DNA of 61,359 nt, filler included, from Stramenopiles sp. TOSAG23-6 (GCA_900128565.1; 15 parts of 15 records of this genome joined end to end with filler, not necessarily neighbours in it), one strand, 5' to 3'. Positions 6,086 through 57,281 are shown, counted from the first letter of the whole stretch. Made by a program: numbers and translations. Notes: a model not told the origin generated them from the sequence alone.

Positions 6086-8050
6086 CTATACATTTTGTTG
6101 TTGAAGTGCTTCTCTCTCTTCTCTCTCTCTTTTTAGTTTCGCGTCCTTTCTTACTATAGTTCTCCATTTATCTTTGAGATTAACGTTTGTTCTGTAGTCC
6201 GGGAAATCAAAGTCCTTCTTTATAGCAGCCCACCTACCAAAGCCATGTTTTGCGACACCATCTCTAAGCATATTTTCCTCGGCTTCTGTCCACTTGTTTC
6301 TTTGATATTTTGTTCTTTGTTTTTTCTTTGATGGAGAATCTTCGTCAGCACCATCAGCATCATCTTCACGACTGCGCTTTTGGTTGCCACTACTTGTAGC
6401 TCTCTCGTTTTCTTTGTCATCAAACAGTCTAAGTGGTTTTATCGATGTTTTCATAGGTTGTAACCTTCTTCTTGTTGGCACAGCTTCATCCGACTCTGAA
6501 TCTGTTTCAATTTCTTCAGCTGGAATGATTTTTTCAACTTCGTTTTCATTATGATTTTCATGTCCACTCGCATTTCGATGGCAATTAACATCATCATCAA
6601 CAATTTCAACATCAACAATGTCCATATCAGGATCGTACTCATCATTTGTATCAGGAACGTAATTATCACCATCATTGTTATTTCTCGCTTGCAATTTTTT
6701 TAAGATTCCATTCGAGTCGGGAGAAAATTCATCTGAATCTGAGTCACTGTCATACCAAGACAAGGCTTTTGCAGAAGATTTCTTGTTGAGTAAACTTTCT
6801 TTTTTTTGTCCACGTCCACGGGTCGATTTTCCTTTTCCTTTACGATCCTTTGATAGATTTCTTGTATTTCTGTGAGTGGACATTCGAGAAGTAGATGTCT
6901 GCGAGACACTTACTGGTTCAAGAGGGCCTCTAGATTCACTTCTGGGATGACTCGGACGTGTAAGAGCAGCCTCACTTGAAACAACTGCAGCATTCAAAGG
7001 ATCTTCACCACCAGACTTATCTAGAGTCATTCTACTGTCTTTAACACCAGATATAACATCTTCAACCAATTGTGCAGATTCTTCAGAGTTATCACGACTA
7101 TCATTTTCATCGTCTTCCTCGTCTTCAGTATCATCATCAACAAACGGATCTCCAATTTCTACGCTTTCTATTTTTTTTGGCTTTTCAGATTTTCGCTGTA
7201 CATCTGTTTTCTTTGTATTTGTTTTAGACTTCTTTGCAACACTTCCGTGAGAAAACAAATTACTTAGCGCACTGAATTGGTTTGTAAATACTTCTGCTGC
7301 TTTTGCTGCAGAATTCAAGGCTTCTTTAAAAGGCGAATATTGAGAAACCTCATTTACAGGTGATTCAATTGAAGTCTCATTTACTGGTGATTCATTAGGC
7401 TTAGAGTTCTCATTTACTGGTGATTCGTGTGATTTTTCAGGCTCATCAAAAGGTGAGTCCTCTTGGACAATTGCATCAAGATTACTTTTACCACCAGCCA
7501 ATTCACGAATTTGACTTAAACTTAAATTCTGAGTGTCGTCGCCACGAGAAACACTCTTTACAGTACTCCTAGGTTGAGGAAAATTCGATTCGTTCGGACC
7601 TGAAGATGACGATAAAGTGTCCTCACCATGGTCCGAAATACGCTTCTTACTTAGCGGTGGAACTATCGTTTGATAAATACTTTTAATCCCATGATTCGTT
7701 TCACATGTCTTGGCAAGTCTTAGAAGAAAAGGTTTGCTAAAGACTGTAGACTCAACCAAGTCAATAGCGTTTTCGAAATCCTTTTTAAAGTCTTCAAAAG
7801 AACATGTATTTTGGAAAAATATTTGAAAAAAAAAAAAAAATTGTTAGGTACAAATTTTCGTACGAAAAAAAAAAATCCAATTTGAAAAAAAATAAAACAT
7901 ACATTGATCTAACAAATATTTTGCACGTTTTCGGATAGCTGACACAGATTGATCAGAGCTACTTGTAAAAATATCTGTTAATTGGTTTCGGTTGCTGTGA
8001 TACATTTCGACGACTTGGTCATACAAATTTTCTTCAAGATCTTTCGAAAT
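6086..8050 (-). CDS. TRF-like single telobox Myb protein (duplicate copy, 5' partial)
   Basis: Identical to 1966-3930. Confidence 0.75.
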
Positions 8051-16552: not shown

Positions 16553-17099
16553 ATGTTTGTACGATATATGGGTAAAAAACGAAATGAAGTGGAACGACAA
16601 ATTGCTAAATTGCTTGCTTTTGAAAAAGCACATCCAAATATTGAAGGATTAATTATCAAACAAAGTGAATTAGACGATGCTGTACATCAGATTGGTCGTA
16701 CTGTTGAAGATCGTAAAATTGTGAAAGATGTAATTTTTTTTTCATTTTTTTTACAAAAATTTTTTTTTTTTTCCTATGAAAATTTGTACCTAACAAAAAA
16801 AATTGAAAAAAAAAAAAAATATTTTTAAAAAATGTATGAAGAAAAGAAAACATCAGATCATGATAGTAATCATCATGAACATTCAAATCATCGTCTTCAT
16901 CGATATGACGATGAGTCATTTGAAGAGGAGCATTTTTTTGGAGAGTTAGCCATCAAAGTCTGTAGTGGAACAGACCTGCCGTCTATGGATTTTCTNAGTA
17001 AAAATGATAATTTTGTTACTTTACAATTTATCAGTCAAAAAAGCAACAATAAAAAANTGTTAGCTGAGGGAGACTCGAGTGANGGACCCAGTGATGATG
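16553..17099 (+). CDS. Internal fragment of a C2-domain-containing protein; GT-AT intron 16730-16837
   Basis: GELAIKVCSGTDLPSMDF.SKNDNFVTLQF resembles a C2 start; GAT|GTAATT...GTAT|GAA is in frame. Confidence 0.55.
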
Positions 17100-17110: not shown

Positions 17111-17150
17111 TTAATTATGATTAATTATGATTAATTATGATTAATTATGA
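17111..17150 (+). repeat. (TTAATTATGA)4 minisatellite
   Basis: Visible tandem repeat. Confidence 0.85.
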
Positions 17151-24597: not shown

Positions 24598-24795
24598 NNN
24601 NNNNNNNNNNNNNNNNNNNNNNNNNNNNNNNNNNNNNNNNNTTAATTAATTAANNNNNNNNNNNNNNNNNNNNNNNNNNNNNNNNNNNNNNNNNNNNATA
24701 TGTATGTTTTATTTTTTTTCAAATTCGTTTTTTTCGTACGAAATTTTGTACCTAACAAATTGAATTTTTTTTTGAAATATTTTTCCAAAATACAT

Positions 24796-25500: not shown

Positions 25501-27154
25501 TTATTTCTCTTGAGACATATAAAAGTAAAAACCTGATAGAAACACGAAAAAAAAGACAAGAAATATATTTTTTTCCAATTTTTGTGTCTTTTTCATTACT
25601 TTACTTTTTTTTATACGATTTTTCAGAATATTTGTGTCTTCTTCATGGATATTTTTGATTCCAAGAATGGCGCCAAATTTTGCAAATGGACATTTCCATT
25701 CTTCATCAAAATTCACTGAAATATTTAATAGTTTATTCAATGCTTCAGATAAAGGAGGTATTTCGTTGGAAGAGTCTCCACCCATTATATCCAATTCTGT
25801 GAATAACCTCATATTCAATAAAAATGCAAATATTATGAAAAAATATGTCTTTTTTTGTTTGAAATTCGTTAGGTATAGAATTTTCATTGTAAAGAAAATG
25901 TTAGGTACAAAATTTCGTACGAAAAAAAAACAAAATTCGAAATTCAAAAAAACACGTTAGCTTCTGCAATAATAGTTTTTGCAGTTTCATTAGACAAATC
26001 AAGTGAATCTAAAGCTTGCCTATATTTGTCTTTAAAAGCTCTCTCACCTGTTTTTATATTTTCAAATACGTAGAATGAAAGTCCGTTTTTATGTATTGTG
26101 AAAAAATACTTTACAACTCAATACTTTTGTTGGTAAAAAAATTTAAAAAAAAAACTAAATAAATTCGAAATTCATCTTGAACACGTATATCTTTTAGATG
26201 TAAGCTTTTCTTTGCTCGTCGCATTAGAACCCTCCCACCAGATAAATCACCCATATATCGAGTGTATGCATGTGCTATTAACTCAGATGCATTACATTTT
26301 TTAATTCTATTACAATACTCTATTGTACATGTATTGTTGGAAAAAAAAAAATCATTAAAAATTTGTTAGGTACAAAATTTACTATCAAAAAAAATTCGTG
26401 TTTTTTGTAAAAAAAAAAAATAAAACATTCATGGAGAGGGTTGTGTTGCTTCTATTGAACTTTTCCATTTGTCGTTCGAACCAAACCAAAACGCCATGTC
26501 TTTTTCGAGAGATACTTTACGGTTTAATTCAGTAGGGAAATGTACTTTAGATATCATTTTATCATTTTTCATATCATTCAGACGCGTCTCTAGGACAGTA
26601 TATACAAAATAGAGATCAGCAATGAGTTGTTTATACAGTTTTTCCTCAATGTTGCCACGAATAAATTTTTTTACAAAGTTTACATTTTCTGCTGCAGTAT
26701 GGGATGCACGAGTTCCTTCTTTAATTTGCTTACTAAATGAAGAATTCATTGCGTTTTTCGTATCATTTTTATGAATAGTTGACGACAAATTAGAAGACCA
26801 AGTGCAACGTTCGAGGGCTACCATGAGCTCAGGAGTTGCATTGTGTTTAAATGGACAAATAGAGTTAAACTGTGGGCAGTTACCCATCTGTTTTTTAGTA
26901 CGCTCACTAACAGCGTGTAACTCTCGAAGTAATTTTATGAGAAGTATATGCGCTTTACTAGAACTTTGTCCACGATGAGGAATCTTTTCAAAGAGTACCT
27001 TTAGTTCTTCCGTTGTTTTAACGCGTTTGAAAGGACAACCATTCTCGAATGCTGGGCATTTCGTCAGATCCTCTTCACCTCCAGTTATATTGCACAGAAT
27101 TTCTTTGTATGGGCACCCTTCAAGAAAGGCGGGACAGTATTCTTTTAGATTCAT
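25501..27154 (-). CDS. HMOX: Heme oxygenase with N-terminal Cys-Pro repeats; three family introns
   Basis: IKEGTRASHTAAEN, LYFVYTVLE, FPTELNR, AHAYTRYMGDLSGG, GLSFYVF, EAN.AFLLN assembled across introns. Confidence 0.9.
26091..26188 (-). other. Family intron, AT-AT (98 nt)
   Basis: GAT|ATACGT...AATACAT|AAA gives LKD-KNGLSFY. Confidence 0.75.
26329..26430 (-). other. Family intron, GA-AT (102 nt)
   Basis: CCAT|GAATGT...AATACAT|GTACA gives PSP-C-TIEY. Confidence 0.8.
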
Positions 27155-27461
27155 GGTGGTAGACTTGGATAGCGTCTCTACAGAGAGAGAAGAAGAGAGA
27201 CTTTTTCAGTTTTGAAAAAACATCAAGAAGCAAAGAGAAAATTTTTGCCACGGCACGCGCACTAAAAAAAATTGAGAAAATCGCCGACGTCAAAACGAAA
27301 AGGCATAGGTAGTCTTTCCTGTGGATACGGACTATTGATTTTTGATCCTGTGAATGATTCGTATCTTTTCATTGAATGCTACATTCAATTGCCAAAGAAA
27401 TAAAACGAAATATATTCCAGAAGGCTTTCCATACAACTCTACACAAACAACACTTTGAACA

Positions 27462-28238: not shown

Positions 28239-28844
28239 TGTACGTTTTTTTTTCATACTTCCTGGACGATACTGCTGTTTACAAGGTCTCCGGAGGTCAC
28301 CTGTAGAAAAATCATCTGCAAAGAAATCGTCCGGTACAAGCTTTTTTACACTTTGATTTACCGGTCGTTGACGCTTGAGACCCTTCTTACTCTTCTTTTT
28401 ACCCATGAATTGGTCAAAGGATAAAATTTTGAATATATTTCACCTTATTCTATCATTTATCCTTTGTTAGAATAGATTCAATCTCGAATGTTGTTGAAGA
28501 TTTGAGATTGTCTATGAAAGATTTTTAGCCCACGTGCAACGAATTCATGTCAACGAAAATTTGCTACTTATACGTAGCTTAGGCTTACTAGGGTTAGGGT
28601 TTTATTTCTCAATACTAATTGAATTTCAATTGAATAATAATCGATAATAATTTCACTTACTTCGTTTTATTGGATAGTAGGATATATAATNNNNNNNNNN
28701 NNNNNNNNNNNNNNNNNNNNNNNNNNNNNNNNNNTTAATTAATTAANNNNNNNNNNNNNNNNNNNNNNNNNNNNNNNNNNNNNNNNNNNNTACGAAATTT
28801 TGTACCTAACGATTTTTTTTTTCAAATATTTTTCCAAAATACAT

Positions 28845-30658
28845 GAACCTCTATTCGATGAAAAAGGATTATTACACATTCTCAAGGATACTTTGACAAG
28901 AAAATGTATTTTGTTCATCATTCATTTCAGATTTATTTTGTTGTTTTTGGTGTGAAATTTTGTACCTTATGATATTTTTTTTGAATAATTAAATATTTTT
29001 TCAAAGCACAGTTTTAGAAAAACAGCATAAAAGTGTTTATAAATCATTTTCTCAAAGAAAGACTGAAAAAAGTACAAAAAATAGTTCAAAAATTATCCGA
29101 TTATCTTTTCGAGATGACGTCAGAGATCCCGTGAGTGAATACAATATCCCTATTTGTGGCAGATGGCTGATTTCTGCCGATTGTCCAGCCAATATAAAAC
29201 ATACATTTTCGCAGTGTCTACAACAGTTACGCAACGAAAATCGAGGGATTCAAATTTTACTTCGTGCAATATATGTTTTCAAAATTGAATTTTTTAACAA
29301 TTTCGAATTAATTTTTTTTCATACGAAATTCCGTACTTAACAAATTTGTTGCACTAAAAAAAAATATTTTTTCAAAATACATAGGTGGTGGTGAAATAGA
29401 GAGACAATCAAGAATTGGAAAAAATAAAAAGAATGGTACTAGAGATTTATATGGGTGGAAATTGACCGAACGTTTTCATTTTAATTTCGAATGTATTTTT
29501 TTTTTCGTACGCAATTTTGTACCTAACAAATTTAAGTTTTTTTTTTTGAAATATTTTTTCTAAAATAGGTGCAAGGTCTCCCTAGATGTTTTCATCCAGC
29601 GAAAGAAATAATCGAAAATTGTTTCTCTACTTTTATAAATTCAGATCCACCAAATAGTTATAAACAGGATAAAAACCGAAATTCAGATGCAGAAAATAGT
29701 TATAAACAGCATGAAAACCAACTGAATAATAAAAATAGTAATAATGATAGTAATAATAATAATATCATTGAAATTGGACCTTATCTAAAATATGAAGGTT
29801 GTGTTACTTTTGTAGATATTAAAAACAAAAATCAAAGAAAGAATGGATTAATTTCTTCGAATAGTTCAATGGATTTGAATATTGGTAACTGCAATAGTTC
29901 TAGAAAAAGAAGTGAAACGAATCAAAATTACAATAATTCTACACCTAAAACAACTCCACTTTCTGACGAATCAATACAAAAACCTGTACATTATTATTCT
30001 CCACTTTCGAATGAATCGTCAAAAGCAACAAATTGGAAAAACATTTTACTAGGCACTCCAAAGCGCAGCCCAATGAGACTTCGGCATACATTTTCTGGCT
30101 CCCAAGGTGTTGTGAGTCAGTATCATCACAACGACGAAAATATTTGGGATACATCGAATCATAGNACTGGGACCGTGTACTTTTTTCAAAATTGAATTTT
30201 TTAATAATTTCNAATTTTTTTTTTCATACGAAATTCCGTACTTAACAAATTTTTTTAGTCAAAAAAANATATATATATATTTTCCACAATACATATCCCA
30301 TCCATATGCGACAATATCTGGACCAGATGATATNTTATTTTGTACCACNGCTTTACAAACAGAAAATGATATAAAAGATACTCCTCCTACTATAAATACT
30401 ATAAATAAACATATAAAAAAATGCTGGTCTTTGGAACTTGATAGTTGGACGAGTAAAATTCGGACTAGAAGTTCGTCTTTTGAATGGCGAAATTTAGCAA
30501 TTGGTATGATGAAATGCATGGCTGAAAATGAAATATTGCAAACTTTACCAGACGAAAATTATTATGATAATGACTTTAGTCCTACTCTATTTCCATCNAG
30601 CACAGATCATTCGCCGAAATGTTCTGATTTTAAAGGCCCTTCACCTCTAAACATTTAA
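28845..30658 (+). CDS. 3' part of an unknown gene with four family introns (GT-AG 28906-29011, AT-AT 29271-29382, GA-AG 29468-29568, GT-AT 30177-30294)
   Basis: Each removal links the open frames on either side. Confidence 0.6.
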
Positions 30659-30866
30659 TAAACACTTGAATTATTGAAATAAAATGTATATCCTTTGTTT
30701 TATTATCATCTAAATTTATATAAACAAAAGGTTGACATCAGATTTAAATGCCCGTAAGATTTATGTACTACCAGTAAAACGATTCAAAGGTTTTTTTCCG
30801 GCCAATTTCAATTTCGATTTTTGTTTCGTACGAAATTTTGTACCTAATGAATTTGTTTTTGAAATA

Positions 30867-36871: not shown

Positions 36872-37029
36872 NNNNNNNNNNNNNNNNNNNNNNNNNNNNN
36901 NNNNNNNNNNNNNNNTTAATTAATTAANNNNNNNNNNNNNNNNNNNNNNNNNNNNNNNNNNNNNNNNNNNNTTTTCGTACGAAATTTTGTACCTAACAAA
37001 TTTCGAATTTATTTTTTTTTACAATACAT

Positions 37030-40906: not shown

Positions 40907-41059
40907 GTATGTTTTATTTTTTTTCAAATTCGAATTTTTTTTTCGTACGAAATTTTGTANNNNNNNNNNNNNNNNNNNNNNNNNNNNNNNNNNNNNNNNN
41001 NNNTTAATTAATTAANNNNNNNNNNNNNNNNNNNNNNNNNNNNNNNNNNNNNNNNNNNN

Positions 41060-44000
41060 ATGGAGGAAAGCTTTAATAATTCAACAGACATAGGATTTGA
41101 GGTTTTGTTATTTTCTTGTCTAACAGATACTATATCTTCTAATAAAGCTGATAAAGACGACTTATTGAATAATCTAGTATCTGAGTCATCTGGTGCAAAA
41201 ACCGGTTTTCCAATTGTAGAATTAGGTTTGTAAGCGTCATTTAGAATTGGAATAATAATACGTCGCAGCGAACAAACACGTAAAGCTTCTAGGCGACCCT
41301 TTGAACGACTATTCATAGACTCAAGATTAGTTGAGAACGTCGCATCAAATAATGTTGTAAAATATTCCACTGATTTTGTTCCCGACAAAAACAACCCAAT
41401 GCATCGGACACATAAACACAAGAAGAAGATCGTATAATACAGTGACGAAGTTGTTTTGGCTCACTGTCACTTTACTAGAATGCTCATTTGAAACACATTC
41501 TTTGATATATATAATAAAACAACGCAGAAGTAATTTAGTTTCTTCTTCGTGATTGTGAGTTATCAAAGGTTCTGATTTTTCCGATAGCATCACCTGCTGT
41601 CTTCGAGGCGAGTGCCAAAGAGCCATGAGCTGTTTAAGAATATGTATATTTTCATCGCTACTTAACCAACCAGGGGAATGCTGAGAAAGATTGTGAACTA
41701 TCCAAATCCCTTGAATGTGTAACTGTAAAACAGTGGCAGTTGAGAATCCAGCCGTAGAGGTAGATAATTCTCCCCCCTCCTCAGATTTGTTTGTTTTTGT
41801 TTCTATATTTTCAGTGCTAAGTTTATTTTCATTGGAGTTATATGCTATACCTAAAGTTTTTGTGATAAAATGATGTACCCCAATAGTCGAACACAAATAT
41901 TCGCGAATAGATTTCGCTTCCTTTGAGGAAAGAATTTCTTTCCATAAAGCAACATGACGTGGTAATGATAATCGATTTGAATTTAGGAAATATGTCATAG
42001 TGACTTTAGGGTACAGCGATAAATATTTTGCTAGAGGTTTTCTATAAGGTGAAGAAATCCAACCATATCCTTGATACTTCGTATGTGCAGTCTGATGCTC
42101 ATGTAGAACATTTTCAAGTTGTATGTATTTTGGAAAAATATTTCAAAAAAACATTGTTAGGTACAAAATTTTGTACGAAAAATAAATTCAAAATTGAAAA
42201 AAAATAAAACATGCATTACCGTTGTCGTGAGAGATTCAAGAAATTTAGGACATGATGGTAATAGATGAAATAGATTTAAAATCTCAGCTGCGACATCAGC
42301 TTCCTTTCCAGGCCATCTATGTAAATTTTGTATTTTCGAAGGGTCTGTCCATTGGACTAAATGATCGATTAATTGTTGTCCTAGTTTTAGAGTTTGGTCA
42401 TTGAGATGACTTTGATATCCCTCCTTTATCTTTTTTTGTGAATCCGAGGAAATATCCATATCATCAGTAGTAGTAGTAAAGGTATTTTTCAAAACAACAC
42501 CACTTATGTGATCAAAATAACCTTTCAATAAAGATAATAACCTTGCTAGGCCACGAAGCAAAGCAAGCGATAAATGCTTCACATCTTGAAGATTCACTAA
42601 CATATGTTTCAAACAACTTTCAAGTAATTCCTGTGCTAATGTATGATCACTGTTGGCTTCATTGGAAGCAGAACTGAGAGCCGATTCCAATGCACTATGC
42701 GCAGCAGTTACAACTACTTGACTACGCCCAGTTAAGGATTTGAGGAATAATCTAATACAATGATTACGAAGCTCTTGATGTGGAGAATCTTTTAGAGATG
42801 CTGGTGCTTGTTCAATAACAGAAGCTAGCAAACGAATTACTCCGACACGTAATTGAATTTCAAGCGTACCGGAAAACGGAAAGGCACCAGGTGCTTGAGA
42901 AGTACTCTTTGATGAAACTCCTCCATACACAGCACGGCGGCGTTTCTCTGATCTATCTAAATTATCTGGGTCTCGCATTTCCGTCAATGATAAAGCCTCT
43001 TTAAGGAAAGCTTTAATCTGTTTTGCAGAATTACCATGAACTCTAAACAAAGGAGGGCGAACAGATATAGCAAATGTAAGAGCATGTATTATACCACACT
43101 GAATATCCGCAGGATGGACTAGTAGTTGTCTTGCAAAAATAGCAATATGGAGACGCTTCCTATGAGCATGCATTAAGGTTAACGGAGTGGCCCCGAGACG
43201 ATTTGCCATTCGAATAACAAGTTTTTGTGCGATATCTCTTGCCCATGGTTTTCGACTACAAATCTCAGACATAAAGAGTGCACAAACATTTGATATCATA
43301 GGTTTTGATTTCCAAGTGTACGATGAAAAAATTCTCTTCTGAATTTCCTGCATTTTCTCCGCTGTATCTTTTTCTTCTTCTTTAAGAATATCAGGGATAT
43401 CTGCATCTGCTGCAGAAGCAAGTTTTTCCGAGAATGAATTCGCAACCACCTCGGGTACTTTTTCACCAACTTCATTCGGGTGGCACCTATCGAGCACGGC
43501 AAACAGAGCATCTTGAGCTTCTTGCATTACCTGTGGAAGTACTTCTGGTAGCATCGATTGAACTATATAAAATAAACCTTGAAATAATTGAAGTTGATGT
43601 CGATATGCCACATAAAGATCTTGCCATTCGTTTGCATAAGTATATTACTAATCTAGCCCCTCCACGCTGAACAATCCAACTTTTATGATAAAACGCTTCA
43701 CAGAGTCGCGCAGTTAACGCGGCAAAGAACGCCGCACCACTTTGTACTGCAGCAAGAGGCGAACCACATACAGTTTCTAGCATATTAACAATATTTCCTA
43801 ATAAATCTTCTGCAGTTTTTGCGACAACAACATAATTGTGACAATATGCTTCGACTAGTGGTTTGCATATAAGTAAAGGATCAAGACAATCTTTCAACGC
43901 AGAAGGCGTTAATGCAACTGATAATCGAAGTTGTTGAACATCACTAGCCCAACACTGGCGTAATCTATCTGTTAAGNTCACTATTACTTGTAGACGGTTT

Positions 44001-44992: not shown

Positions 44993-45237
44993 ATGTATTT
45001 TGGAAAAATATTTCAAAAAAAATCGTTAGGTACAAAATTTCGTANNNNNNNNNNNNNNNNNNNNNNNNNNNNNNNNNNNNNNNNNNNNTTAATTAATTAA
45101 NNNNNNNNNNNNNNNNNNNNNNNNNNNNNNNNNNNNNNNNNNNNTATTTTTTTTCAATTTCGAATTTATTTTTCGTACGAAATTTTGTACCTAACAAAAG
45201 TTTAGTTTTTTTTTTCAAATATTTTTCCAAAATACAT

Positions 45238-46046
45238 GCTAAGTGGATAGAAGAGAAAGGTGGCTTAGATTATTTAGTTGCAGAATCGAAAGATGTAATG
45301 CGTAGGTTTTCAAACCCTAACCCTAATTTCATTTTCGATTTTTTTTTCCATACAAAATTTTTGTGCCTAACAAAAAGCAATTGAAAAAATATTTTTTCAC
45401 TATATAGTTGATCCTGTCAAACGCCAAGAATTTTTGAATAGAGTTAAAGATACTGCGCTTAACTTTTTGTTATCCTATCTTCCTGCAGTAGAAGTTCCGC
45501 GAGTGGAAGGGGTGAGTAATGGAGTTGAATATGTACGTCTAAAAATTGAATATTTTTTATTATGAAAATTTTGTTTCGAATTTTGTACGTAACAATTTTT
45601 TTTTACTAAAAAAAAAAAAAAGGATATTTTTCACAATATAGTAGAAAGTACCTGCTGATAGTGTCGATTTAGTTATTGTAGATGGATGTGAACTTCACCT
45701 ACAGGCAGATGATATAAGTTTTATTATTTTCAATTTCAAAGTTTTTTTTCGTACGAAATATTGTGCCTAACAAAAATATTGAATGAAAAATATTTTTCAA
45801 AATACATATAAGTTTCGAAATGCATGACTTGCAATGGACGTACAGACAACCAACTTTTCCATATTTATCGGGTCAAGGCACGATCGATTGTTTGAGTGAG
45901 AGGACACAGTTTAAAGTAGTTTTAAGTTTAGATATTTTGGAAGATTTTAACAAAAAACAGGAAGAATTGGATGAACAATGGTATGAAGCACTCGCAGAAC
46001 GTTCGAAACTTGAAAAACAACGAGTAGAAAAATGTATAGCAAAGGG
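45238..46046 (+). CDS. Internal exons of an unknown gene (introns 45302-45407 GT-AG, from 45533, 45714-45807 AT-AT)
   Basis: Open exons between family introns; LQWTYRQPTFPYLSGQG. Confidence 0.55.
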
Positions 46047-46148
46047 GTACGTTTTTTTTTTTTTTTTTTTTGAATTTATTTTTTTTTACATACCTAAATG
46101 TATACCTAACAAAAAAAAATTATTAAAAAAATATTTTTTACCATACAT

Positions 46149-46536
46149 TGGCTCATCGAATTCCAGCTTTTGAAGAGTCGAAAGTCGTGAGTTCTTGGGC
46201 AGGTTCGTATGAGTATAATACATTTGATCAGAACGCAATTATGTGCGTTTTCAATCATTGATTTTTACCTATATTTTTTCATAGTAAATTTTGTACCTAA
46301 CGATTTTTTAACGAAAAAAAAAATATGTTTCACAATACATTGGTAAACATCCTAAGATATTGAATTTTTATATGATGAATGGATTTAGTGGTCATGGAAT
46401 TCAGCAAGCACCTGCTGCAGGATTAGCCATAGCAGAGCAAATTGTTTATGGAAAATATAAAAATATAGATCTCACACCTTTTGGCTATGAGCGATATCTT
46501 CAAGGCTTACCTTTGAAAGAAAAGAATGTTGTATGA
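46149..46536 (+). CDS. FOXRED1: FOXRED1-like FAD-dependent oxidoreductase, C-terminal two exons; GT-AT intron 46243-46340
   Basis: [35 protein letters not shown]...[14 protein letters not shown]...EKNVV*; absent from the ORF track. Confidence 0.85.
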
Positions 46537-46581: not shown

Positions 46582-49124
46582 TTATTTTTGAACTCTTTTT
46601 AGGGTAACTTCTCTCATTAGCTCTTTAATACTTTGATGTGTTTTTGCTTTCTTTGATAACTTCTTTGCAATTCGAACTCCAAGAGCAACTTTACGAGGAC
46701 TCATAGACCTCTTTTTCGCATATTCTGCAAATTTCTTTTTCGCCGTAACTTCTTGGCGTGCTTTTAATTCATCTAGGAGTATCAACCACGGAGCTCGTTC
46801 AAAGCCACATAGGCATGCAAGAACTCCACCTTTCGAGTAAACATTCCGACCCATAATACTATCTCTTGCGTGACCATGCCTGTGTGTCTTTTTGTCAGAA
46901 ATACCATTATTCGTTTTTTTTGCTCTACGATGGCACATTCCATATAATAACTTTTTTAGCATATCTTCATACATATTTTTCTTTTTATAACCACCAGTCC
47001 AGAAAGTGTTCATTACCAAAGCAACTGATATGCGAATAATCATCATCTTCACAATGATCCAATATAATAGAAAAAATGTATAAGAAACTAAATCAGACGA
47101 GACTTTGGAGTATGCATCAGCAAAGAGAAATGTCTTTGTCATCGCAACAAACATTGTGATATAGCTATTATAAAAGTCATTAAAATTATAAACTAATCGA
47201 TTCTTTCTCCCCATTTCTACGCAAGCCGCAGCTGTACACCAAACATTTGTTTCACTACCATCAATGGTAAGATAAGCAAATCCACCAAATAAGCGCATAC
47301 CTACAGTCGAAAATAAATGAATAGTAGGAAACGCAATACCAACCATAAGTATTATATGTGTTTCCATATTCGCAAGGATGCTTAGCATTACGTAAAATGG
47401 TTTCCATGAAGATAATATTCGGAGACATCGCATACCTCGGCACAATGCTAATGTAATCATAATGATGCTTGTAATTTCTTTAGCTCTTGAATCATTATAT
47501 AACGAAAAAAACAAAAGGCTACCCATTTCGCCAGTAAAACAGGAAAAATTAAGTATCAACTCATATTGATGTCGTCTAGTACTTAAGTATGCATTCCAAC
47601 CAAACACAAATATTTTCATTAAAGAATCGATCATAAAAAATGTTGAGAAAGGCGTATATATATTGTGTAAAATATTTTAAATTCGAAATTTTGTTAAGTA
47701 CAAAATTTTGCATGACAAATAAATAAATTTAAAATTCATGATGAAAACGTATCATATCGAAGAGTATCCATAGCATTAGCAGTGTTTGATCTTGGTATCA
47801 TCATGTGATCATTATTTGAATTTTCTGCATGTTTGGCATCCTTATTTGAATAATGCGTCATTATTTCAACAAAATTAAATAATACTAATAAAGTAATGAA
47901 AATCTCGTAAAAAAAATGAGCGACATGAGGTTCTCTTCTCATCGCAGAAATTTCTTTAGGTCCGAAAAACATCTTTTCAAGAAACATAAACCACCTTTTA
48001 CTTCTACAACGTCGTCTACAACTTGATAGTGAACAGTAGTACTTAACCACAGACCACCAATTATATATATTACACCTATTTTCAGGCAAAGGTGGAGAAA
48101 TCCAACGAGACATTAAATAATTTCGCATTTCGTGTTTTTTTAAATCACTGGATGAATCCTCCATCATTCCAAATAGTTCACAAAAGCCTAAAAATTCTGA
48201 TGGATTAACTACAGAATCTCTATCTAGATCTAATCTTTGAAGAAAATTTTTTGCAATTTCATGAAGTTTTACTTCAACACGAAATTTTGAAAATAATTCT
48301 TCCTCATATTCATCAAATTGGGCATCAATTGTACGGAATCCTTTTGTATGCTTTTTATTATCATCAGTGTTAGGTTTATCATCAGTGTTTATTGAATGAG
48401 GCAGCTCTGGAAATGCTGTTATATTTTCATCTTTCTTGTTATCAATATTGCTTGTGAAAATACTGCTACTTTCCGTTTCATTACTGGAAATTCCTAATTC
48501 AATACCTACAGCACTATCTACATTTACTTTTGTTTCACCACTGGAAGTTCCTAATTCAATACCTACAGCACTATCTACATTTACTTTTGCTTCATTTATT
48601 TTTGTTTCATTTATTTTTTTCACAGATTTTTGATATTTTTTATACTTTTTTATTATGCGTTTCCCTTTTTCTTCATTTTTTGACAATTTTAAACCATAAT
48701 TAGATATTGATAACACCTCATGCACAAGGTCACGAACAACAATAAATGAAAGCTCTCCTGTGTTATTTACGTCAAGCATCTTGAAGACAGTCAATAAAGC
48801 ATGCATTGCGAAAATATATTTTTTTTAGCAAAAAAAATTGTTAGGCACGAAATTTTCATAGTAAAAAAAAATCGAAATTCATGATGAAAACGTACATGAT
48901 GTTTCATCTGTTCTCCATTAGACATAATACAATTTCGATAATCCTCAACAAAAGACTTTACAGTAATTGCCAGTAGCATTGGCACTAAGTAAAAGCATGT
49001 TAAACACATAAACACAATCCAAAGCAAATATTGTGATAAAATATTTAAAAACAAAGTTGTTAGGTACAAAATTTCGTACAAAAAAAAAAAACAGTCAAAA
49101 TTCGATTTTGAAAACGTACAAAGG
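46582..49124 (-). CDS. Two-pore/voltage-gated-like cation channel with EF-hands, 3' part; introns 47658-47752, 48801-48895, 49026-49119
   Basis: FKMLDVNNTGEL EF-hand, S4-like RGMRCLRIL, GMRLFGG, YNFNDFYNSYITMF pore region. Confidence 0.65.
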
Positions 49125-53153: not shown

Positions 53154-53303
53154 GTATGTTTTTTTTTTTTCAAATTCGAAGTTTTTTTTCGTACGAAATT
53201 TTGNNNNNNNNNNNNNNNNNNNNNNNNNNNNNNNNNNNNNNNNNNNNTTAATTAATTAANNNNNNNNNNNNNNNNNNNNNNNNNNNNNNNNNNNNNNNNN
53301 NNN

Positions 53304-55020
53304 TACCATCATCTTCGCCACCTTCAGATTCACCATCAGCTTCACCATCATCATCTTCGCCACCTTCAGATTCACCATCATCTTCGCCACCTTCAGATTC
53401 ACCATCATCTTCGCCACCTTCAGGTGTAACAGCATCATTTTCGCCACCTTCAGATTCACCATCATCTTTGCCACCTTCAGGTGTACCATCAGCATCTTCG
53501 CCACCTTTAGATTCACCACCATCTTCATTGTCTGCAGATATATCTTCAGCATCTTCCTTGGTTGACGCTGTTGTTTGTGCTGATGCTTTTTCACCAACCT
53601 TCTTTTTCTCTGGTGCTTTTTTCTCGGTTGATGCTGTTGTGTGTGTTGTTGTAGGCGCTGATGCTTTGTCACCAACCTTCCTTTTTTCTGGTACTTTTGT
53701 CTCGGTTGATGCTGTTGTAGATGTTTTTGTAGGTATTGGTGCTTTTTTCTCTGACAAACTTTTTCCATACTGTGATAAATGCTTCTGAAGATCTTCAACT
53801 ACTTTTAATTTTATATCCATTTCATCTGTAGGTCTCCTTTCTTGTCCATGTTCTGCATTTTTCTGGTGGTCCAATGTGTCTTTCATGTTTTTAGTCGCTA
53901 TTTTTTCCACAGATTTTATTACGTCTTCAACCTTTTCTTCAGTTTCTTTTGTGTATTTTTCTTTTTGACTTTGAAGTGCTTTGCGAGCTAGTTCCAGTGT
54001 GTTTGCCGAAAAATTGTCAAACTCATTAGAAACTTTTTCAGCAACTTCTTTTTTTTCTTCCATATGCTTATTTTGCATCTTTTCAAGTTGACTACGAATT
54101 TGTTCTGTTTCGTCTTTCGCTTCGAGATAGTCTACCTTCGCTTGCTCAATGATATGTGAAAAATTGTTTCTTTCATGCTCGACAGCTTCTTCAATAGCAT
54201 GTTTTGCCACACCAAAATCCTCTTTTTCTTGCTCTTTCAAAATAACGTTTAAATCCTTCTTGCTCTTTTCAACAGCAGATTTCACCGCGACTTTTTGATT
54301 CGTATGTTCCGAGTCTAAAAGATCTTGGATGGCTTGTGTGTTCTCTGCTTTGATCTTCTGAATTTTACGTTTGTGGTTTTTATTCATATGCTGAATTTTA
54401 CGTTTGTGGTTTTTATTCATATGTTGAAATTCAGCAGAAGCTTCCTTCATGGCAGCATCCAATACGGCTGCTTCCGTCTTTGCTTTGATCTTCTGAATTT
54501 TACGTTTGTGGTTTTTATTCATATGTTGAAATTCAGCAGAAACTTCCTTCTCGGCAGCATCCATTACGGCTGTTTCCGTCTCCACTATTACATTATCCAT
54601 AGCAGTATTTAACTCTTTTTCCTTCCTTTCATCATGCTCTTGTATAGCTTTTGAAATCATCTGATTTATCTTTTCGTGTCTCCGCAATCGTTTTTCAATT
54701 CGATTGGCTTGGTCGTTTGCTACCTGTTTTTCCTTCTCTTTTTTTTGCTTTTCAAACAATGCCTTGTGTAATTCTTCATCTCCAACAAGAAAAGGTTCTA
54801 CCACAAGGGTATTTTCAGGGTTTGTTTTCTTCGCAACATGTTTTCTTCCCGTTATATTAATTTGAAGTTTCGAAGGTAACTTTTGGAGTGTGACTGTTGT
54901 TGTTGCCGATGTTTTGTTGTTGTTTTTGTCGTCTTCGGGTTTGAGTTTAACATACACCGCATTAGTTATTGCAAAGATACTTAATAAAAATAATAATACT
55001 TGCATGTTCATATGAGGCAT
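53304..55020 (-). CDS. Secreted coiled-coil protein with acidic GESEGGEDD tandem repeats, 3' truncated
   Basis: Signal peptide VLLFLLSIFAITNA; QHMNKNHKRKI x3; repeats at 53304-53520. Confidence 0.75.
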
Positions 55021-55268
55021 GAAAATTATTGGTCGTGTGAAGATATGTTGCAAAACTCAATCGCCGGATATCCAAGCAAGATCCAAGCAAGATCCATCGG
55101 TTAAATACCTCCCAGCTAGATCGACAAACGCAATATACGTACCAGATCGACAAACCGCCAAATTCGAAAACCTCCTAAAACGCAAATGGTCAAAATCTCC
55201 TAAACGCGCGTGAAAAGTCGTCGTAAAAGAAAAAAAAATCAACACATAATAATTATATTTCTCAAAGC

Positions 55269-57281
55269 ATGGTTAATAGTTCAAACACTTGCATTTACTC
55301 ACACGATGAGTGCCTTCTGCATAACATTAAAGATCACGTTGAACAACCCGCGCGAGTTCGAGAAATTATGTTGGCTTTAAGGAGTTTTTATCCGAAAATT
55401 CCTGTTGTTGAAGCTCCATTAGCAACAGAAACACAGTTGTTGCGGTTTCATTCCGAACGGCATTTGTATCGTTTGTCTTGCGCGCATGAGCGACTGAGAG
55501 ACTTTCCTGAATTCTATAATCAAGATACTCATGTAATAAATAGTAGGAAGTCATCTGGTTCTTCTAATAAAAGAAACGGTAAAAAACTTTCAAAGAGAGA
55601 AAGAAAAGTGGAAGCTCGACAACGCCGACGGAATGAAGCGAATAAAAAACGTCACCGACCAGCCATAGCGAAGGGACAGCGAGTAGAAAAAATCGATACT
55701 GACACGTTCTTGACGCGATATACACAAAATGCATTTCTTCGAGCATCCGGTGCTTCCGTCGCTGCTGTTGATGCTGTATTATCTAGTACATATAAAAGAG
55801 CTTTCTGCGTAGTTAGACCTCCTGGGCATCATTCTGGTCCTTCAACCGCTGCTGGTTTCTGTTTCGTAAATAATATTGGAGTTGGTGTACGACATGCCCA
55901 AGAAGTGTATGGCTTGACACGTGTTGCTGTGGTTGACTTTGATGTTCATCATGGAAATGGAACACAAAAAGGTTTTGAATTAGATCCAAATGTCTTTTAC
56001 GCCTCCACGCATCAAATGCCTTTATGTATGTAGTATTTAATTTTTTTTTGGTTTTTCATAGTAAATTTTGTACCTAACATTTTTTTTATTACAAACAAAA
56101 CTAAAAAAACTACATTTTTTTAATCGTACTAAAATAAAAAAATTGTTGTTATATTGTACATATTGAATATCCAAACACTGGTAAAGCGACTGAAACAGGA
56201 TGCTGTCGGAATGTTACGAATGTACGTTTAATTTATTAATTTATTTTTCTATGATAATTTCGTACCTACAAAAAAACATTTTTTTTCATTATTCAATATT
56301 GAATTTGACATATTTTTTCACAAAACATGTACCGATGAAAAAATCCACAACTTCAGAACAATTTCAAGTCGCTTATTCTACACAAATTCTTCCAGCGTTA
56401 CACAAATTTTCACCTGAGCTTATAATGTAAGTTTCAAAATTGAATTTCAATTCTTTTTTCATAGTAAATTCCGTACCTAACGATTATTTTTACTAAACAA
56501 TATTTCTTCGCCACCCATGATTTCTGCTGGATTTGACGCACACAAAGATGATCCACTTGGGGGGATGTTACTCGTTAAAGAAGATTTTTTATGGGTTACC
56601 CTTCAACTTGTGGCTGCGGCAGAAACAATAGTTCGTTTTCATCATTTCAATTTCATTTTTTTTAATAGAAAATTTTGTACAAAAACATATTTTATCATCA
56701 TTTCAATTTCAAAATTCAGTACCTGACGAATTTCGAATTTGACATATTTTTACTAGCACGTGACTCTTGTAAAGGTCGTGTAGTATCGTGCTTGGAAGGA
56801 GGCTGTAGGTTTTGTTTGTTTCAATTTTATGTGACGAAGTATCCTATTTTTTTATTTTTAGTATGAAATTTTGTACCTTACACTCGAATTTGTTTTAAAC
56901 AAAATATCACTTTTATTAATTTTGTTGCATCGTTGACAAATTTCACACATTATATACAATGTTGAAGCCATCAAGGAATGTTCAATTGCTCATCTAAGAG
57001 CTCTTCAGAGCCCTGATGCTTTACCTGGAACTGAAGATTCGAAATTATTTATTAATGCAGTTGAATTGTATTTAAGTACAATTTCTGTAGATGAAAAGAT
57101 CGATTCTCCAGAGGGCGATAGTAGCGATATTGCAACGGTTATCAGTGTTGCCTCTGGTATTGGGAATTTTTGGTGCAAAGAGATAGAAAAAGAAAATCCA
57201 AAAATTATAAATAAATCTCAAAAAGAGATAGAAAAAGAAAATCCAAAAATTATAAATACATCTAAAAAAGAGATAGAAAAA
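55269..57281 (+). CDS. Histone deacetylase-family (class II-like) protein with five family introns, 3' truncated
   Basis: HVEQPAR, RPPGHH, GFCFVNN, DFDVHHGNGT, PL-YPNTG, N-VPM, ELIM-ISAGFDAH, LEGG-YN. Confidence 0.9.
56026..56168 (+). other. Family intron, GT-AT (143 nt)
   Basis: TTAT|GTATGT...TTGAAT|ATCCA restores PLYPNTG. Confidence 0.8.
56222..56328 (+). other. Family intron, GT-AT (107 nt)
   Basis: AAT|GTACGT...AAACAT|GTA restores NVP. Confidence 0.8.
56427..56518 (+). other. Family intron, GT-AT (92 nt) with textbook GTAAGT donor
   Basis: ATAAT|GTAAGT...CCCAT|GATT restores ELIMISAGFDAH; no AG between branch point and motif. Confidence 0.88.
56631..56761 (+). other. Family intron, probably GT-GT
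   Basis: The nearby TAG is out of frame; ATA|GTTCGT...CACGT|GAC is in frame. Confidence 0.5.
56805..56955 (+). other. Family intron, GT-AT (151 nt)
   Basis: GGCT|GTAGGT...TATAT|ACAAT restores the catalytic LEGGY. Confidence 0.82.

What the first reader, a model, noticed from the sequence alone, without database searches (positions are those of the whole stretch)
55269..56955. Most introns end in AT, not AG: a GT-AT splicing system, clearest in the HDAC gene
Seen: restoring the invariant HDAC motifs (PLYPNTG, NVP, ISAGFDAH, LEGGY) needs introns 56026-56168, 56222-56328, 56427-56518 and 56805-56955 to end in AT. For 56427-56518 the first AG after the CCTAAC branch point lies beyond ISAGFDAH, so AG use would delete a Zn-ligand Asp. 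The same holds in FOXRED1 (46243-46340), heme oxygenase, AP4B1, TRRAP, FMO, the channel and DUF4349. By hand, roughly 20 of about 28 frame-checked introns end in AT, about 5 in AG, and single cases look like GT or TT. Established: U2 spliceosomes nearly always require 3' AG (U2AF35 binding, G+1/G-1 pairing in step 2). Inference: this organism has a spliceosome that routinely accepts AU-3' ends, keeping A(-2) but dropping G(-1). I know of no description of this as the majority class in a genome.
Basis: partly seen in the sequence, partly recalled or inferred. Interest (0 to 1): 0.95.

Follow-up and report, generated by a model that had tools for sequence, protein, structure and literature searches.

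The report
Introns that end in AT, not AG
Genes of this marine protist are broken by about 100-base copies of one repeated element that must be cut out at GT...AT rather than the near-universal GT...AG borders to give intact proteins, but no spliced RNA has yet been seen.

Summary
The window is a chain of about 4-kb contigs from a low-GC marine eukaryote. One exon is 100% identical to a EukProt protein labelled GSMAST32, so it is probably a MAST-3 stramenopile.

The only border pair that fits all four is GT..AT.

Across the window I curated 25 introns by frame or homology. Twenty end in AT, 3 in AG, 1 in TT and 1 in GT. Position -1 is T in 22.

Copies in unrelated genes are up to 90% identical. 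An AT direct repeat flanks 16 of 25, so this is an introner-like element whose target duplication supplies the 3' AT.

A public gene model forces GT-AG borders and aligns worse to all 10 homologues tested.

The weak point is RNA. No spliced read was obtained, and the single RNA contig over HDAC is unspliced. Whether the U2-type spliceosome, the U12-type spliceosome or another machinery removes them is inferred, not shown.

This is a new variant of transposon-derived non-canonical introns. I found no description of it for this lineage.

The parts
55269..56025 (+). HDAC (class II, PF00850-like) exon 1, from ATG
   Evidence: Stop-free 252 codons; 35-41% identity to P0003/P0008/P0010/P0011
56026..56168 (+). 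HDAC intron 1, GT..AT (other register TG..AA); diverged family copy with an insertion and a second TACTAAA
   Evidence: PL|YPNTG is contiguous in homologues; nhmmer hit 56047-56098
56169..56221 (+). HDAC exon 2
   Evidence: tblastn YPNTG…NVTNV
56222..56328 (+). HDAC intron 2, GT..AT; a GTAC repeat at both ends allows five registers, including GT..AC
   Evidence: Same length as homologues across NV|P; 3' block …TTTTTTCACAAAACAT
56329..56426 (+). HDAC exon 3
   Evidence: tblastn against P0003 residues 257-281
56427..56518 (+). HDAC intron 3, GT..AT (ATG repeat); no in-frame AG in the next exon
   Evidence: PELIM|ISAGFDAH
56519..56630 (+). HDAC exon 4
   Evidence: tblastn ISAGFDAH…
56631..56761 (+). 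HDAC intron 4, GT..GT. An alternative end at 56755 gives GT..TA, the same mRNA as TT..AG. Not resolved.
   Evidence: Both options are in frame and score alike, 1602 against 1605
56762..56804 (+). HDAC exon 5 (may start at 56756)
   Evidence: …CKGRVVSCLEGG
56805..56955 (+). HDAC intron 5, GT..AT (other register TG..TA)
   Evidence: LEGG|Y restored
56956..57281 (+). HDAC exon 6, runs to the contig end
   Evidence: Open frame
26329..26430 (-). Heme oxygenase intron 1, GA..AT
   Evidence: SPCTIEY aligns with TPCTREY of P0152 without a gap; in frame
26091..26182 (-). Heme oxygenase intron 2, GT..AT; the public model reads its 3' block as YFFTIH
25828..25955 (-). Heme oxygenase intron 3, GT..TT (or GT..TA ending at 25831)
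7804..7902 (-). Family intron, GT..AT, consensus-like (duplicate copy at 3684-3782)
   Evidence: In frame, 60 and 571 codons; 90% identical to 42123-42214
16730..16837 (+). Family intron, GT..AT
28906..29011 (+). Family intron, GT..AG, with AG at the consensus end position
29472..29566 (+). Family intron, GT..AT; the alternative 29468-29568 GA..AG is also in frame
   Evidence: and my frame arithmetic
30177..30294 (+). Family intron, GT..AT
   Evidence: In frame, 202 and 120 codons
31228..31327 (-). Family intron, GT..AT
   Evidence: In frame, 484 and 119 codons
38196..38292 (+). Family intron, GT..AT, in an adaptin (Adaptin_N) gene
   Evidence: In frame, 408 and 82 codons
42123..42214 (-). Family intron, GC..AT, in a Tra1/TRRAP-like gene
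   Evidence: In frame, 476 and 258 codons
45302..45407 (+). Family intron, GT..AG, with AG at the consensus end position
45533..45644 (+). Family intron, GT..AG; the AT end at 45639 is excluded by an in-frame TAG
45714..45807 (+). Family intron, AT..AT (the register AT..AC is also possible)
46034..46148 (+). Family intron, GT..AT; the alternative 46047-46146 GT..AC is also in frame
46243..46340 (+).
   Evidence: The chain of five introns stays open for 257 codons up to a stop.
47658..47752 (-). Family intron, AT..AT, in an ion-channel gene; a 5-nt ATACG repeat also allows GT..AC
   Evidence: In frame, 357 and 357 codons
48801..48895 (-). Family intron, GT..AT
   Evidence: In frame, 76 and 354 codons
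60547..60635 (-). Family intron, GT..AT
   Evidence: In frame, 119 and 78 codons
8241..8311 (+). 3' part of a family copy cut by a contig start; ends …AAAATACAT
24702..24795 (+). Full family copy 4 nt from a contig start; ends …ACAT
28791..28844 (+). 3' part of a family copy at a contig start; ends …ACAT
36972..37029 (+). 3' part of a family copy at a contig start; ends …ACAT
40907..40959 (+). 5' part of a family copy (AT|GTATGTTTT…) cut by a contig end
44993..45044 (-). 3' part of a family copy at a contig edge; ends …ACAT
45145..45237 (+). Family copy at a contig start; ends …ACAT
49026..49119 (-). Family copy 5 nt from a contig edge; ends …ATATTT (TT)
53154..53203 (+). 5' part of a family copy (AT|GTATGTTTT…) cut by a contig end
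61295..61359 (-). 3' part of a family copy at the window end; ends …ACAT

Best explanation
Most introns in this genome are copies of one short non-autonomous element of 89-151 nt, an 'introner'. The organism is probably a MAST-3-type marine stramenopile.

The proposed steps are these.
1. The element inserted into coding sequence and duplicated an AT target.
2. It carries a yeast-like 5' splice site at its first base (GTAYGTTTT), a branch-point-like TACCTAAC, and a conserved 3' block (T-rich, then CAAAATAC).
3. The 3' copy of the AT target ends the intron.
4. The pre-mRNA is cut at |GT and after …AYAT|. This removes the element plus one AT and restores the original reading frame.
5. The enzyme is most likely the major spliceosome, with a second step that does not need G at -1.

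The 3' site seems to be set by the 3' block and its position, because AG, TT or GT at that same position also serve. U(-1) could pair with either G(+1) or A(+1), which would explain the two AT-AT copies.

What is shown: the family, the direct repeat, and the junctions demanded by frame and homology. What is inferred: removal at the RNA level, the spliceosome as the enzyme, and the pairing idea.
For: **One repeated family.**
- GTACCTAAC with at most 1 mismatch occurs 55 times, against 5.8 expected.
- nhmmer finds 49 hits at E < 1e-3 in 61 kb.
- Copies in unrelated genes are up to 90% identical.
- By my reading, 15 of 30 contig ends fall in or beside a copy, as expected for a high-copy repeat that breaks assembly.

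**Direct repeat.** The upstream exon ends in AT in 16 of 25 introns, against a 9.5% background (P = 4e-11).

**Junctions.**
- HDAC is contiguous with homologues.
- In heme oxygenase, the model with junctions at the end of the 3' block beats the public GT-AG model against 10 of 10 homologues. Summed bits are 2394-2430 against 2227, with fewer gaps in every case. The public model has a 13-aa deletion and two 6-aa insertions exactly at the three junctions.
- A chain of five introns stays open for 257 codons up to a stop codon.
- Frame tests give 7 of 7 and 12 of 14.

**AG is not the rule.**
- Only 2 of 17 AT-ending introns have any AG between the core motif and the junction.
- The first downstream AG is usable in 4 of 17.

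**Signals kept in old copies.** The HDAC copies are only 66-73% identical to their nearest relative, yet they keep G1, T2, G5, T6 and the TACCT.AC core.

**The DNA is real.** Contigs from an independent seawater metagenome (X2, records 3 and 4) carry introns 2-4 of HDAC whole, with 1 difference in 738 nt. No intron-less DNA form was seen.
Against: - No spliced RNA was observed. RNA contigs of three metatranscriptomes covered only the neighbouring gene.
- The one RNA-library contig over HDAC (X5 record 12, 56298-56510, depth 3.8) is unspliced at the 3' end of intron 2 and the 5' end of intron 3.
- The intron core has high summed depth in the RNA libraries (806 and 2577, against 4497 in the DNA run). 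Intron-bearing RNA is therefore not rare, although other organisms or other copies may contribute.
- Removing a transposon plus one target copy restores the frame by construction. The frame tests alone therefore prove insertion, not splicing. The case for splicing rests on intact, conserved exons around old, diverged copies.
- Several introns are ambiguous or do not fit. 29275-29382 fits AT..AT or GT..AC but not GT..AT. The borders of 29472, 46034, 25955 and 56631 have in-frame alternatives.
- The inverted terminal repeat is only about 7 nt long.
- A 3' AU is strongly disfavoured in the spliceosomes studied so far (recalled knowledge).
Confidence: 0.6

Rival explanations
1. The introns are removed by a re-tooled minor (U12-type) spliceosome. 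This would be an expansion of U12-like introns by a transposon, as proposed for Physarum.
For: - Long, nearly invariant 5' and branch motifs are typical of U12-type introns.
- Both G and A occur at +1 with the same downstream motif: 23 G and 2 A of 25.
- The 3' dinucleotide is free (AT, AG, TT, GT).
[quoted passage not shown] They carry inverted repeats with a TA target (passages of bioRxiv 10.1101/2020.10.12.336362).
- Blastocystis, another stramenopile, has hundreds of minor introns (passage of PMC10639083).
Against: - The 5' motif is GTAYGTTTT, not [AG]TATCCTT; positions +5 and +6 are G and T.
- The core is TACCTAAC, not TTCCTTAAC.
- The core lies 33-43 nt or more from the 3' end, further than the 10-20 nt I recall as usual for U12-type introns.
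- No minor snRNA could be looked for, because no genome is held, and Rfam found nothing in the window.
Confidence: 0.15
2. The elements are cut out of RNA by a non-spliceosomal route, like the nonconventional introns of euglenids. There, paired intron ends bring the junctions together and the intron leaves as a circle.
For: - Junctions carry short direct repeats, so the borders are ambiguous.
- In young copies the last 2 exon bases plus GTAT can pair with ATACAT at the 3' end. This terminal stem appears in the MFE or centroid fold of 3 of 4 young copies.
- The borders are non-canonical.
- Such introns are described for euglenids and diplonemids (passages of PMC6221363; sections of PMC12621601).
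Against: - The 5' GT..GT and the branch-like motif are conserved, unlike euglenid nonconventional introns.
- The terminal stem is absent from HDAC introns 3 and 5 and displaced in intron 1.
- No fold is more stable than shuffled sequence; z-scores run from -1.4 to +0.5 for 8 of 8 introns.
- Protein affinities point to stramenopiles, not Euglenozoa.
Confidence: 0.1
3. The segments are not removed from RNA at all. They would be recent transposon insertions in dying genes, or they would be excised from DNA in the expressed nucleus, as ciliate IESs are, or they would be an artefact of single-cell amplification.
For: - Frame restoration follows from insertion alone.
- The only RNA contig over HDAC is unspliced.
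Against: - Five to six insertions per gene sit in HDAC and in the 45145-46600 gene, yet the exons are open and conserved. The HDAC copies are old, at 66-73% identity to their nearest relative.
- The same intron-bearing DNA is present in an independent metagenome, and no intron-less DNA contig was seen.
- The elements are not TA-bounded.
- Stramenopiles have no known germline/soma split of nuclei (recalled).
Confidence: 0.07
4. The shared sequence is only this organism's unusually long splicing signals plus T-rich filler, not a mobile element. The introns would then be old and independent.
For: - An earlier finding of this scan (e1-562441) resolved a similar 'introner-like' signature in Ostreococcus as genome-wide splice signals.
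- The conserved blocks here coincide with the 5' site, the branch region and the 3' site.
Against: - Identity of up to 90% extends over the whole ~95 nt, filler included.
- Lengths are uniform: 89-108 nt for 20 of 25, by my reading of the lengths.
- Palindromic internal motifs (TTCGTACGAA, TTCGAA) have no known role in splicing.
- An AT direct repeat flanks 16 of 25.
- Contigs break inside the repeat.
Confidence: 0.08

Closest known systems
Introners / introner-like elements: transposon-derived spliceosomal introns of Micromonas, Aureococcus, dinoflagellates and fungi
   Same: Many near-identical short copies lie inside unrelated genes. There are flanking direct repeats. One splice site comes from the element and the other from the duplicated target. 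They are common in aquatic protists (passages of PMC11282704; search listing of PMC9860276 and PMC12130899).
   Different: Described introners, including those of the stramenopile Aureococcus, use canonical GT-AG motifs (passage of PMC7789003). Here the target copy gives AT, and 20 of 25 introns end in AT.
Non-canonical MITE-derived introns of the tunicate Fritillaria borealis (Henriet et al. 2019; known to me only through PMC11282704 and PMC12621601)
   Same: Most introns are non-canonical, carry inverted repeats and target duplications, and are thought to be removed by an adapted U2-type spliceosome.
   Different: In Fritillaria the commonest borders are AG-AC and AG-AT, with many other pairs, and the 5' GT is lost. 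Here the 5' site is canonical (GT in 22 of 25, by my reading of the termini), only the 3' dinucleotide deviates, and one pair dominates.
Non-canonical introns and introner elements of Amoebophrya (PMC7789003)
   Same: It is a marine protist in which more than 60% of introns are non-canonical. A subset has 3-5-nt direct repeats over the junctions and inverted repeats that can form a hairpin.
   Different: Amoebophrya has no dominant dinucleotide pair and its inverted repeats are 8-20 nt long. Here there is one dominant pair, conserved 5' and branch motifs, and only a roughly 7-nt inverted repeat that is lost in old copies.
Expanded U12-type introns of Physarum polycephalum (bioRxiv 10.1101/2020.10.12.336362)
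   Same: GT-AT and AT-AT borders are real there, a purine is accepted at +1, the motifs are long and strict, and an origin from a transposon with a 2-bp target is proposed.
   Different: In Physarum, non-canonical pairs make up 0.8% of all introns, the motifs are [AG]TATCYTT and TTTGA, and the branch lies 10-12 nt from the 3' end. Here the motifs look U2-like and yeast-like, and the branch-like motif is 33 nt or more away.
Nonconventional introns of euglenids and of hemistasiid and eupelagonemid diplonemids
   Same: The borders are non-GT-AG, there are direct repeats at the junctions, and a MITE origin is suspected.
   Different: Those introns lack conserved borders and U1 complementarity and depend on paired ends. 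Here GT, +5G and a branch motif are conserved, and pairing of the ends is not maintained. The taxon also differs.

Membership tests
Introner (transposon-derived intron family) | Many similar copies in unrelated genes | tested here: met
   49 nhmmer hits at E < 1e-3 in 61 kb. Copies are up to 90% identical between genes.
Introner (transposon-derived intron family) | Target-site duplication and terminal inverted repeats | tested here: inconclusive
   An AT direct repeat is present in 16 of 25 (P = 4e-11). The inverted repeat is only GTAT(G)TTTT / AAAATAC. No autonomous partner was seen.
Introner (transposon-derived intron family) | Precise removal from mRNA | tested here: inconclusive
   Homology and frame demand it. 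No spliced RNA was seen, and one RNA contig is unspliced.
U2-type GT-AG intron | GT (or GC) at the 5' end with +5G | tested here: met
   +1 is G in 23 of 25, +2 is T in 23 of 25, +5 is G in 17 of 25, +6 is T in 22 of 25.
U2-type GT-AG intron | AG at the 3' end | tested here: not met
   3 of 25 end in AG and 20 of 25 in AT. The first AG is usable in 4 of 17.
U2-type GT-AG intron | Branch-point motif upstream of the 3' end | tested here: met
   A TACCTAAC-like motif is present in 24 of 25. It lies 33-43 nt from the end in most (19 of 24 by my reading of the list). Use as a branch point is not shown.
U12-type intron | 5' [AG]TATCCTT | tested here: not met
   The consensus is GTAYGTTTT.
U12-type intron | TTCCTTAAC branch site close to the 3' end | tested here: not met
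   The motif is TACCTAAC and lies 33 nt or more from the end.
U12-type intron | U11, U12, U4atac and U6atac snRNAs present | not testable with these tools
   No genome is held. No Rfam hit in the window.
Euglenozoan nonconventional intron | No conserved borders; stable pairing of the intron ends | tested here: not met
   The borders are conserved. Folds are no better than shuffles for 8 of 8, and the terminal stem is missing in old copies.
Ciliate-type internal eliminated sequence (DNA excision) | TA-bounded and absent from the bulk (somatic) DNA | tested here: not met
   The borders are not TA..TA. Metagenome DNA contigs carry the segments.
Class II histone deacetylase (PF00850) | Conserved motifs in order on the spliced product | tested here: met
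   Hits carry PF00850. PLYPNTG, NVP, ISAGFDAH and LEGGY are restored.

The most novel reading that the evidence does not exclude
This would be the first genome in which GT-AT is the standard intron class. The spliceosome of a MAST-3-type stramenopile would have given up the 3' AG rule. It would place the 3' cut by a conserved 3' block and accept U at -1, which can pair with G or A at +1. A mobile introner whose AT target duplication supplies the intron end would then have been free to spread into hundreds of genes. Public gene models for this lineage, built with GT-AG rules, would be wrong at most exon junctions.
Probability: 0.5. Interest if true: 0.85.

Novelty: new variant of a known kind. 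Interest (0 to 1): 0.74.

Why it matters
- **Splicing chemistry.** The 3' AG is among the most constant signals in eukaryotic gene expression. A free-living, abundant marine protist that uses AU at most 3' splice sites, while keeping a textbook 5' site and branch motif, would be a natural experiment on how the second step of splicing reads the 3' end.
- **Intron origin.** It would be a clean case of a transposon making introns with a border that the host had to tolerate.
- **Annotation.** The one public model I could compare (P0147) mis-places all three of its junctions, with a 13-aa deletion and two 6-aa insertions. Proteomes of this lineage used in phylogenomics and ocean gene catalogues may therefore carry errors at most junctions.
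- **Testability.** The question can be settled with existing seawater metatranscriptomes.

Tried and rejected
**RNA evidence.**
It was then run on the HDAC contig alone.
- The RNA contigs did not cover the HDAC exons, so there is no verdict on splicing.
- The 'joints' listed inside 56079-56855 are cross-matches between intron copies, not splices.
- The 36-nt skip at 54572-54609 is also present in DNA and is a strain indel.

**Whole genome.** None is held.

**Diplonemid idea.** I first suspected a eupelagonemid. I dropped this when protein affinities and the EukProt label pointed to a MAST-3 stramenopile.

**Searches that gave nothing useful.**
- The metagenome scan with HDAC exon 1 returned only distant, mostly bacterial-type deacetylases.
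- The search with the 'FOXRED1' exon found nothing.
- The Atlas search gave no taxon.
- Rfam found nothing in the window.
- A full-text search for TACCTAAC gave only unrelated papers.
- The scan's earlier findings held nothing on this genome or its look-alikes.

**Analysis steps that failed or were corrected.**
- Automatic motif picking of borders failed in A/T-rich or diverged copies, so those were curated by hand.
- 45533-45639 was first counted as AT. It was corrected to AG at 45644 after the chain test showed an in-frame TAG.
- My script count of contig ends lying inside repeats (5 of 38) used a faulty split of the contigs and is discarded.

**Border registers rejected.** AT..AC as the general register: it needs an exon ending in AT and an intron ending in ACAT, which by my reading holds for only about 10 of 25.

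**Mechanism rejected.** A tRNA-type bulge-helix-bulge cut: the ends show no such structure.

**Left out of the 25.** These were left out because their borders were not resolved:
- most introns of contig 16472-20485
- 29275-29382
- 13978
- 4325 and its duplicate 205
- 30802
- copies cut by contig ends
Full report
**What the window is**

- The 61,359 bases are 15 contigs of about 4.0 kb, joined by spacers of the form N44-TTAATTAATTAA-N44. The first two contigs are near duplicates.
- GC content is about 26-44%.
- ORFs carry eukaryotic domains: Myb, IQ, Adaptin_N, Rad51, Tra1 ring, the thioredoxin-like domains of UGGT, an ion channel, EF-hand/WW and heme oxygenase.
- A heme-oxygenase exon (26432-27205, minus strand) is 100% identical over 232 residues to P0147. 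The EukProt source labels P0147 'GSMAST32.ASY1.ANO1.2796.1 assembled CDS'.
- The best named relatives of HDAC and UGGT are oomycetes and a diatom.
- I therefore read the organism as a MAST-3-type marine stramenopile. It is not a euglenozoan, as I first suspected from the literature on diplonemid introns.
- The HDAC contig is held by seawater metagenomes and, in small shares, by metatranscriptomes.

**The observation in HDAC**

- Exon 1 (55269-56025) is an open 252-codon class II deacetylase start.
- tblastn of four homologues shows that the next four coding pieces follow with no missing or extra residue at PL|YPNTG, NV|P, PELIM|ISAGFDAH and LEGG|Y.
- The spliced model is stop-free and 463-465 aa long. 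It raises the summed score against 7 homologues from 998 (exon 1 alone) to about 1602, with about 2 added gap positions.
- Because of 1-5-nt direct repeats at the junctions, each intron has several equivalent registers. Only GT..AT fits all four.
- The fifth HDAC intron (56631-…) ends in GT, or in TA, which gives the same mRNA as TT..AG. The two in-frame options score alike.
- AG cannot rescue the gene.
  - Intron 3 has no in-frame AG in the whole next exon.
  - Intron 2 has one, at 56419, which would delete nearly all of the exon.
  - In intron 1 the nearest would remove YPNTGK.

**The window as a whole**

The introns share one architecture:

AT|GTAYGTTTT – T-rich with TTCGAA-like words – TTTTCGTACGAAATTTTGTACCTAAC – T-rich – (G)AAATATTTTTCCAAAATACAT|R

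*Frame tests*

- With borders chosen by motif alone (at most 1 mismatch to each end word), 7 of 7 unique introns join the dominant upstream and downstream frames. These frames are often hundreds of codons long.
- A profile HMM built from 9 copies gave 87 hits at E ≤ 10.
  - Of these, 16 had E ≤ 0.01 and reached both ends of the model. One was skipped for N and one is the duplicate contig.
  - Of the 14 unique introns left, 12 are in frame at the HMM-defined borders (P = 8e-5).
  - The 9 seeds had been chosen after I had seen that they were in frame. Of the 5 new ones, 3 were in frame.
  - The two misses each have an in-frame alternative. One is 29472-29566, GT..AT. The other is 46034-46148, GT..AT from an upstream GTATAG.

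*Heme oxygenase*

- The public model P0147 uses three GT-AG introns.
- Placing the three junctions at the ends of the conserved 3' blocks instead (GA..AT, GT..AT, and GT..TT or GT..TA) aligns better to 10 of 10 homologues. Summed bits are 2394-2430 against 2227.
- It also removes a 13-aa deletion and two 6-aa insertions that sit exactly at the junctions of the public model.

*The 45145-46600 gene*

- Five introns chain into a frame that is open for 257 codons and ends at a stop.
- This test corrected one of my calls from AT to AG.

*Final tally of 25 curated introns*

| Borders | Count |
|---|---|
| GT-AT | 16 |
| GA-AT | 1 |
| GC-AT | 1 |
| AT-AT | 2 |
| GT-AG | 3 |
| GT-TT | 1 |
| GT-GT | 1 |

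- Position -1 is T in 22 of 25, and -2 is A in 23 of 25.
- Four of the 25 have an in-frame alternative border: 29472, 46034, 25955 and 56631.
- Left out because I could not resolve them: most introns of contig 16472-20485; 29275-29382, which fits AT..AT or GT..AC but not GT..AT; 13978; 4325 and its duplicate 205; 30802; and copies cut by contig ends. Of the cut copies whose 3' end is present, nearly all end in …ACAT, with CCAT and TT in single cases.

*AG is not the hidden rule*

- Only 2 of 17 AT-ending introns have any AG between the core motif and the junction.
- The first AG beyond the junction is usable in 4 of 17.

**What it is**

- The copies are one family. Identity between copies in unrelated genes reaches 90% over the whole length, while the HDAC copies are 66-73% identical to their nearest relative. 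The family therefore has young and old members.
- About half of the contig ends (15 of 30, by my reading) lie in or beside a copy. This is what a high-copy repeat does to a short-read assembly.
- The upstream exon ends in AT in 16 of 25, against 9.5% expected (P = 4e-11), and the intron ends in AT. The excised piece therefore equals an element GTAY…ATAC plus one copy of a 2-bp direct repeat.
- The element's ends are a short inverted repeat: GTAT(G)TTTT and AAAATAC.
- This is the anatomy of a miniature DNA transposon that became an intron, that is, an introner.

**How it probably works**

*Removal is needed.* Removal of the element plus one repeat copy restores the frame by construction, so the frame tests alone do not show splicing. 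The argument for removal from RNA has three parts.
- Essential-looking genes carry three to six copies each and still have open, conserved exons.
- Old, diverged copies keep G1, T2, G5, T6 and the TACCT.AC core, while the filler has drifted.
- The same intron-bearing DNA occurs in an independent metagenome, with no intron-less form (X2 records 3 and 4). This speaks against DNA excision and against an amplification artefact.

*The likely enzyme.*
- The 5' motif equals the yeast-type U2 site GUAUGU, and the core is UACUAAC with one extra C (recalled consensus). I therefore favour the major spliceosome.

*How the 3' cut is placed.*
- It lies at the end of the conserved 3' block. By my own count from the listings, that is 13-14 nt after ATATT in the HDAC and heme-oxygenase copies. 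The last two bases may be AT, AG, TT or GT.
- It follows the 3' block even when the core is 59-90 nt away.
- The site therefore seems to be set by that block, not by scanning for a dinucleotide.

*A possible reason for U at -1.*
- U(-1) is nearly invariant, and both G and A occur at +1. I suggest as an inference that a +1/-1 contact (G·U or A-U) replaces the usual G·G contact.

*Structure is not required.*
- Pairing of the intron ends is possible in young copies but is not kept in old ones.
- No intron folds better than shuffled controls: 8 of 8 have z-scores between -1.4 and +0.5.
- A structure-guided, euglenid-like route is therefore less likely.

*The U12-type reading stays open.*
- Strict long motifs, a purine at +1, and GT-AT and AT-AT pairs are what Physarum's expanded minor introns show.
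- Against it, the motifs do not match U12 consensus, and the core lies far from the 3' end.

**What speaks against the reading**

- I obtained no spliced RNA.
- Three metatranscriptomes cover the neighbouring intron-less gene but not the HDAC exons.
- One 213-nt contig from an RNA library (56298-56510) runs unspliced over two junctions at depth 3.8.
- The intron core has a high summed depth in the RNA libraries.
- These are assembled contigs. They cannot show rare forms or expression levels, and the core depth may come from other copies or other organisms.

**Comparison with what is known**

- Transposon-derived introns are known in several protists.
- Majorities of non-canonical introns are known in three cases.
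  - Fritillaria, with AG-AC and AG-AT borders.
  - Amoebophrya, with no dominant pair.
  - Hemistasiid diplonemids, with CT-CG and other pairs each under 12%.
- GT-AT and AT-AT occur as a small class of U12-type introns.
- What differs here is a single dominant pair, GT-AT, together with canonical 5' and branch signals, in a stramenopile.

**Whether it is in print**

I found no description of it.
- Full-text searches on non-canonical introns, GT-AT, MAST-3 introns, introners in stramenopiles, and the motif itself returned nothing relevant.
- The main text of a paper on MAST single-cell genomes (PMC5778133) has no word beginning 'splic' or 'canonical'. It mentions introns only in its Methods, where genes were built with Genewise, est2genome, SNAP and GAZE (term search only).
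- The Incisomonas paper (PMC12614181) has no mention of introns (term search only).
- Supplements were closed and may hold a remark that I could not see.
- Henriet et al. 2019 and Gawryluk et al. 2016 were not in the library. I know them only through the papers that cite them.

**Verdict**

It is better stated as an introner family with GT…AT borders that now makes up most introns.
- It is a new variant of a known kind. It is of high interest to people who study splicing and intron origin, and it can be tested directly with existing data.

Noticed in passing
window 25504-27154 (minus strand): The public gene model P0147 (EukProt label GSMAST32…) forces three GT-AG introns. Against homologues it has a 13-aa deletion (13 gap columns in the alignment) and reads two intron 3' blocks as YFFTIH and TYFFIIF. 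Gene models of this lineage may be wrong at most junctions.
   Followed up: yes
window 1-4020 and 4121-8140: Two contigs are near-identical duplicates, with the same motif positions offset by 4120. They may be a redundant assembly or two alleles.
   Followed up: no
window 53305-55056 (minus strand): A 584-aa intron-less ORF has no Pfam family but is covered by contigs of three metatranscriptomes. It carries a 36-nt skip (54572-54609) and a 27-nt insertion (after 54447), each seen in both RNA and DNA runs, so these are strain indels. About 25 single-base differences from the metagenome were also listed.
   Followed up: partly
window 32884-36870 (plus strand): A 1329-aa open frame without any Pfam hit lies in the most GC-rich part of the window (38-44% GC), which also has a strong positive GC skew. 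It has no introns of the family. Several single Ns fall inside it.
   Followed up: no
window 17100-19240 (minus strand): Some introns of this contig are swollen by simple repeats (ATAACTAA, TCATTCAT and T/A runs), so family copies can grow well beyond 100 nt. I could not fix their borders.
   Followed up: partly
window 56041-56087: The intron core has summed contig depths of 806 and 2577 in two RNA libraries and 4497 in a DNA run, where single-copy sequence is about 8. This suggests hundreds of copies in the DNA and plentiful intron-bearing RNA. The depths may include other organisms.
   Followed up: no
window 30786-30882: A family-like copy here is flanked by a repeated ~40-nt stretch (…GATTCAAAGGTTTTTTTCCGGCC…) on both sides. 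This may be a larger duplication around an insertion.
   Followed up: no
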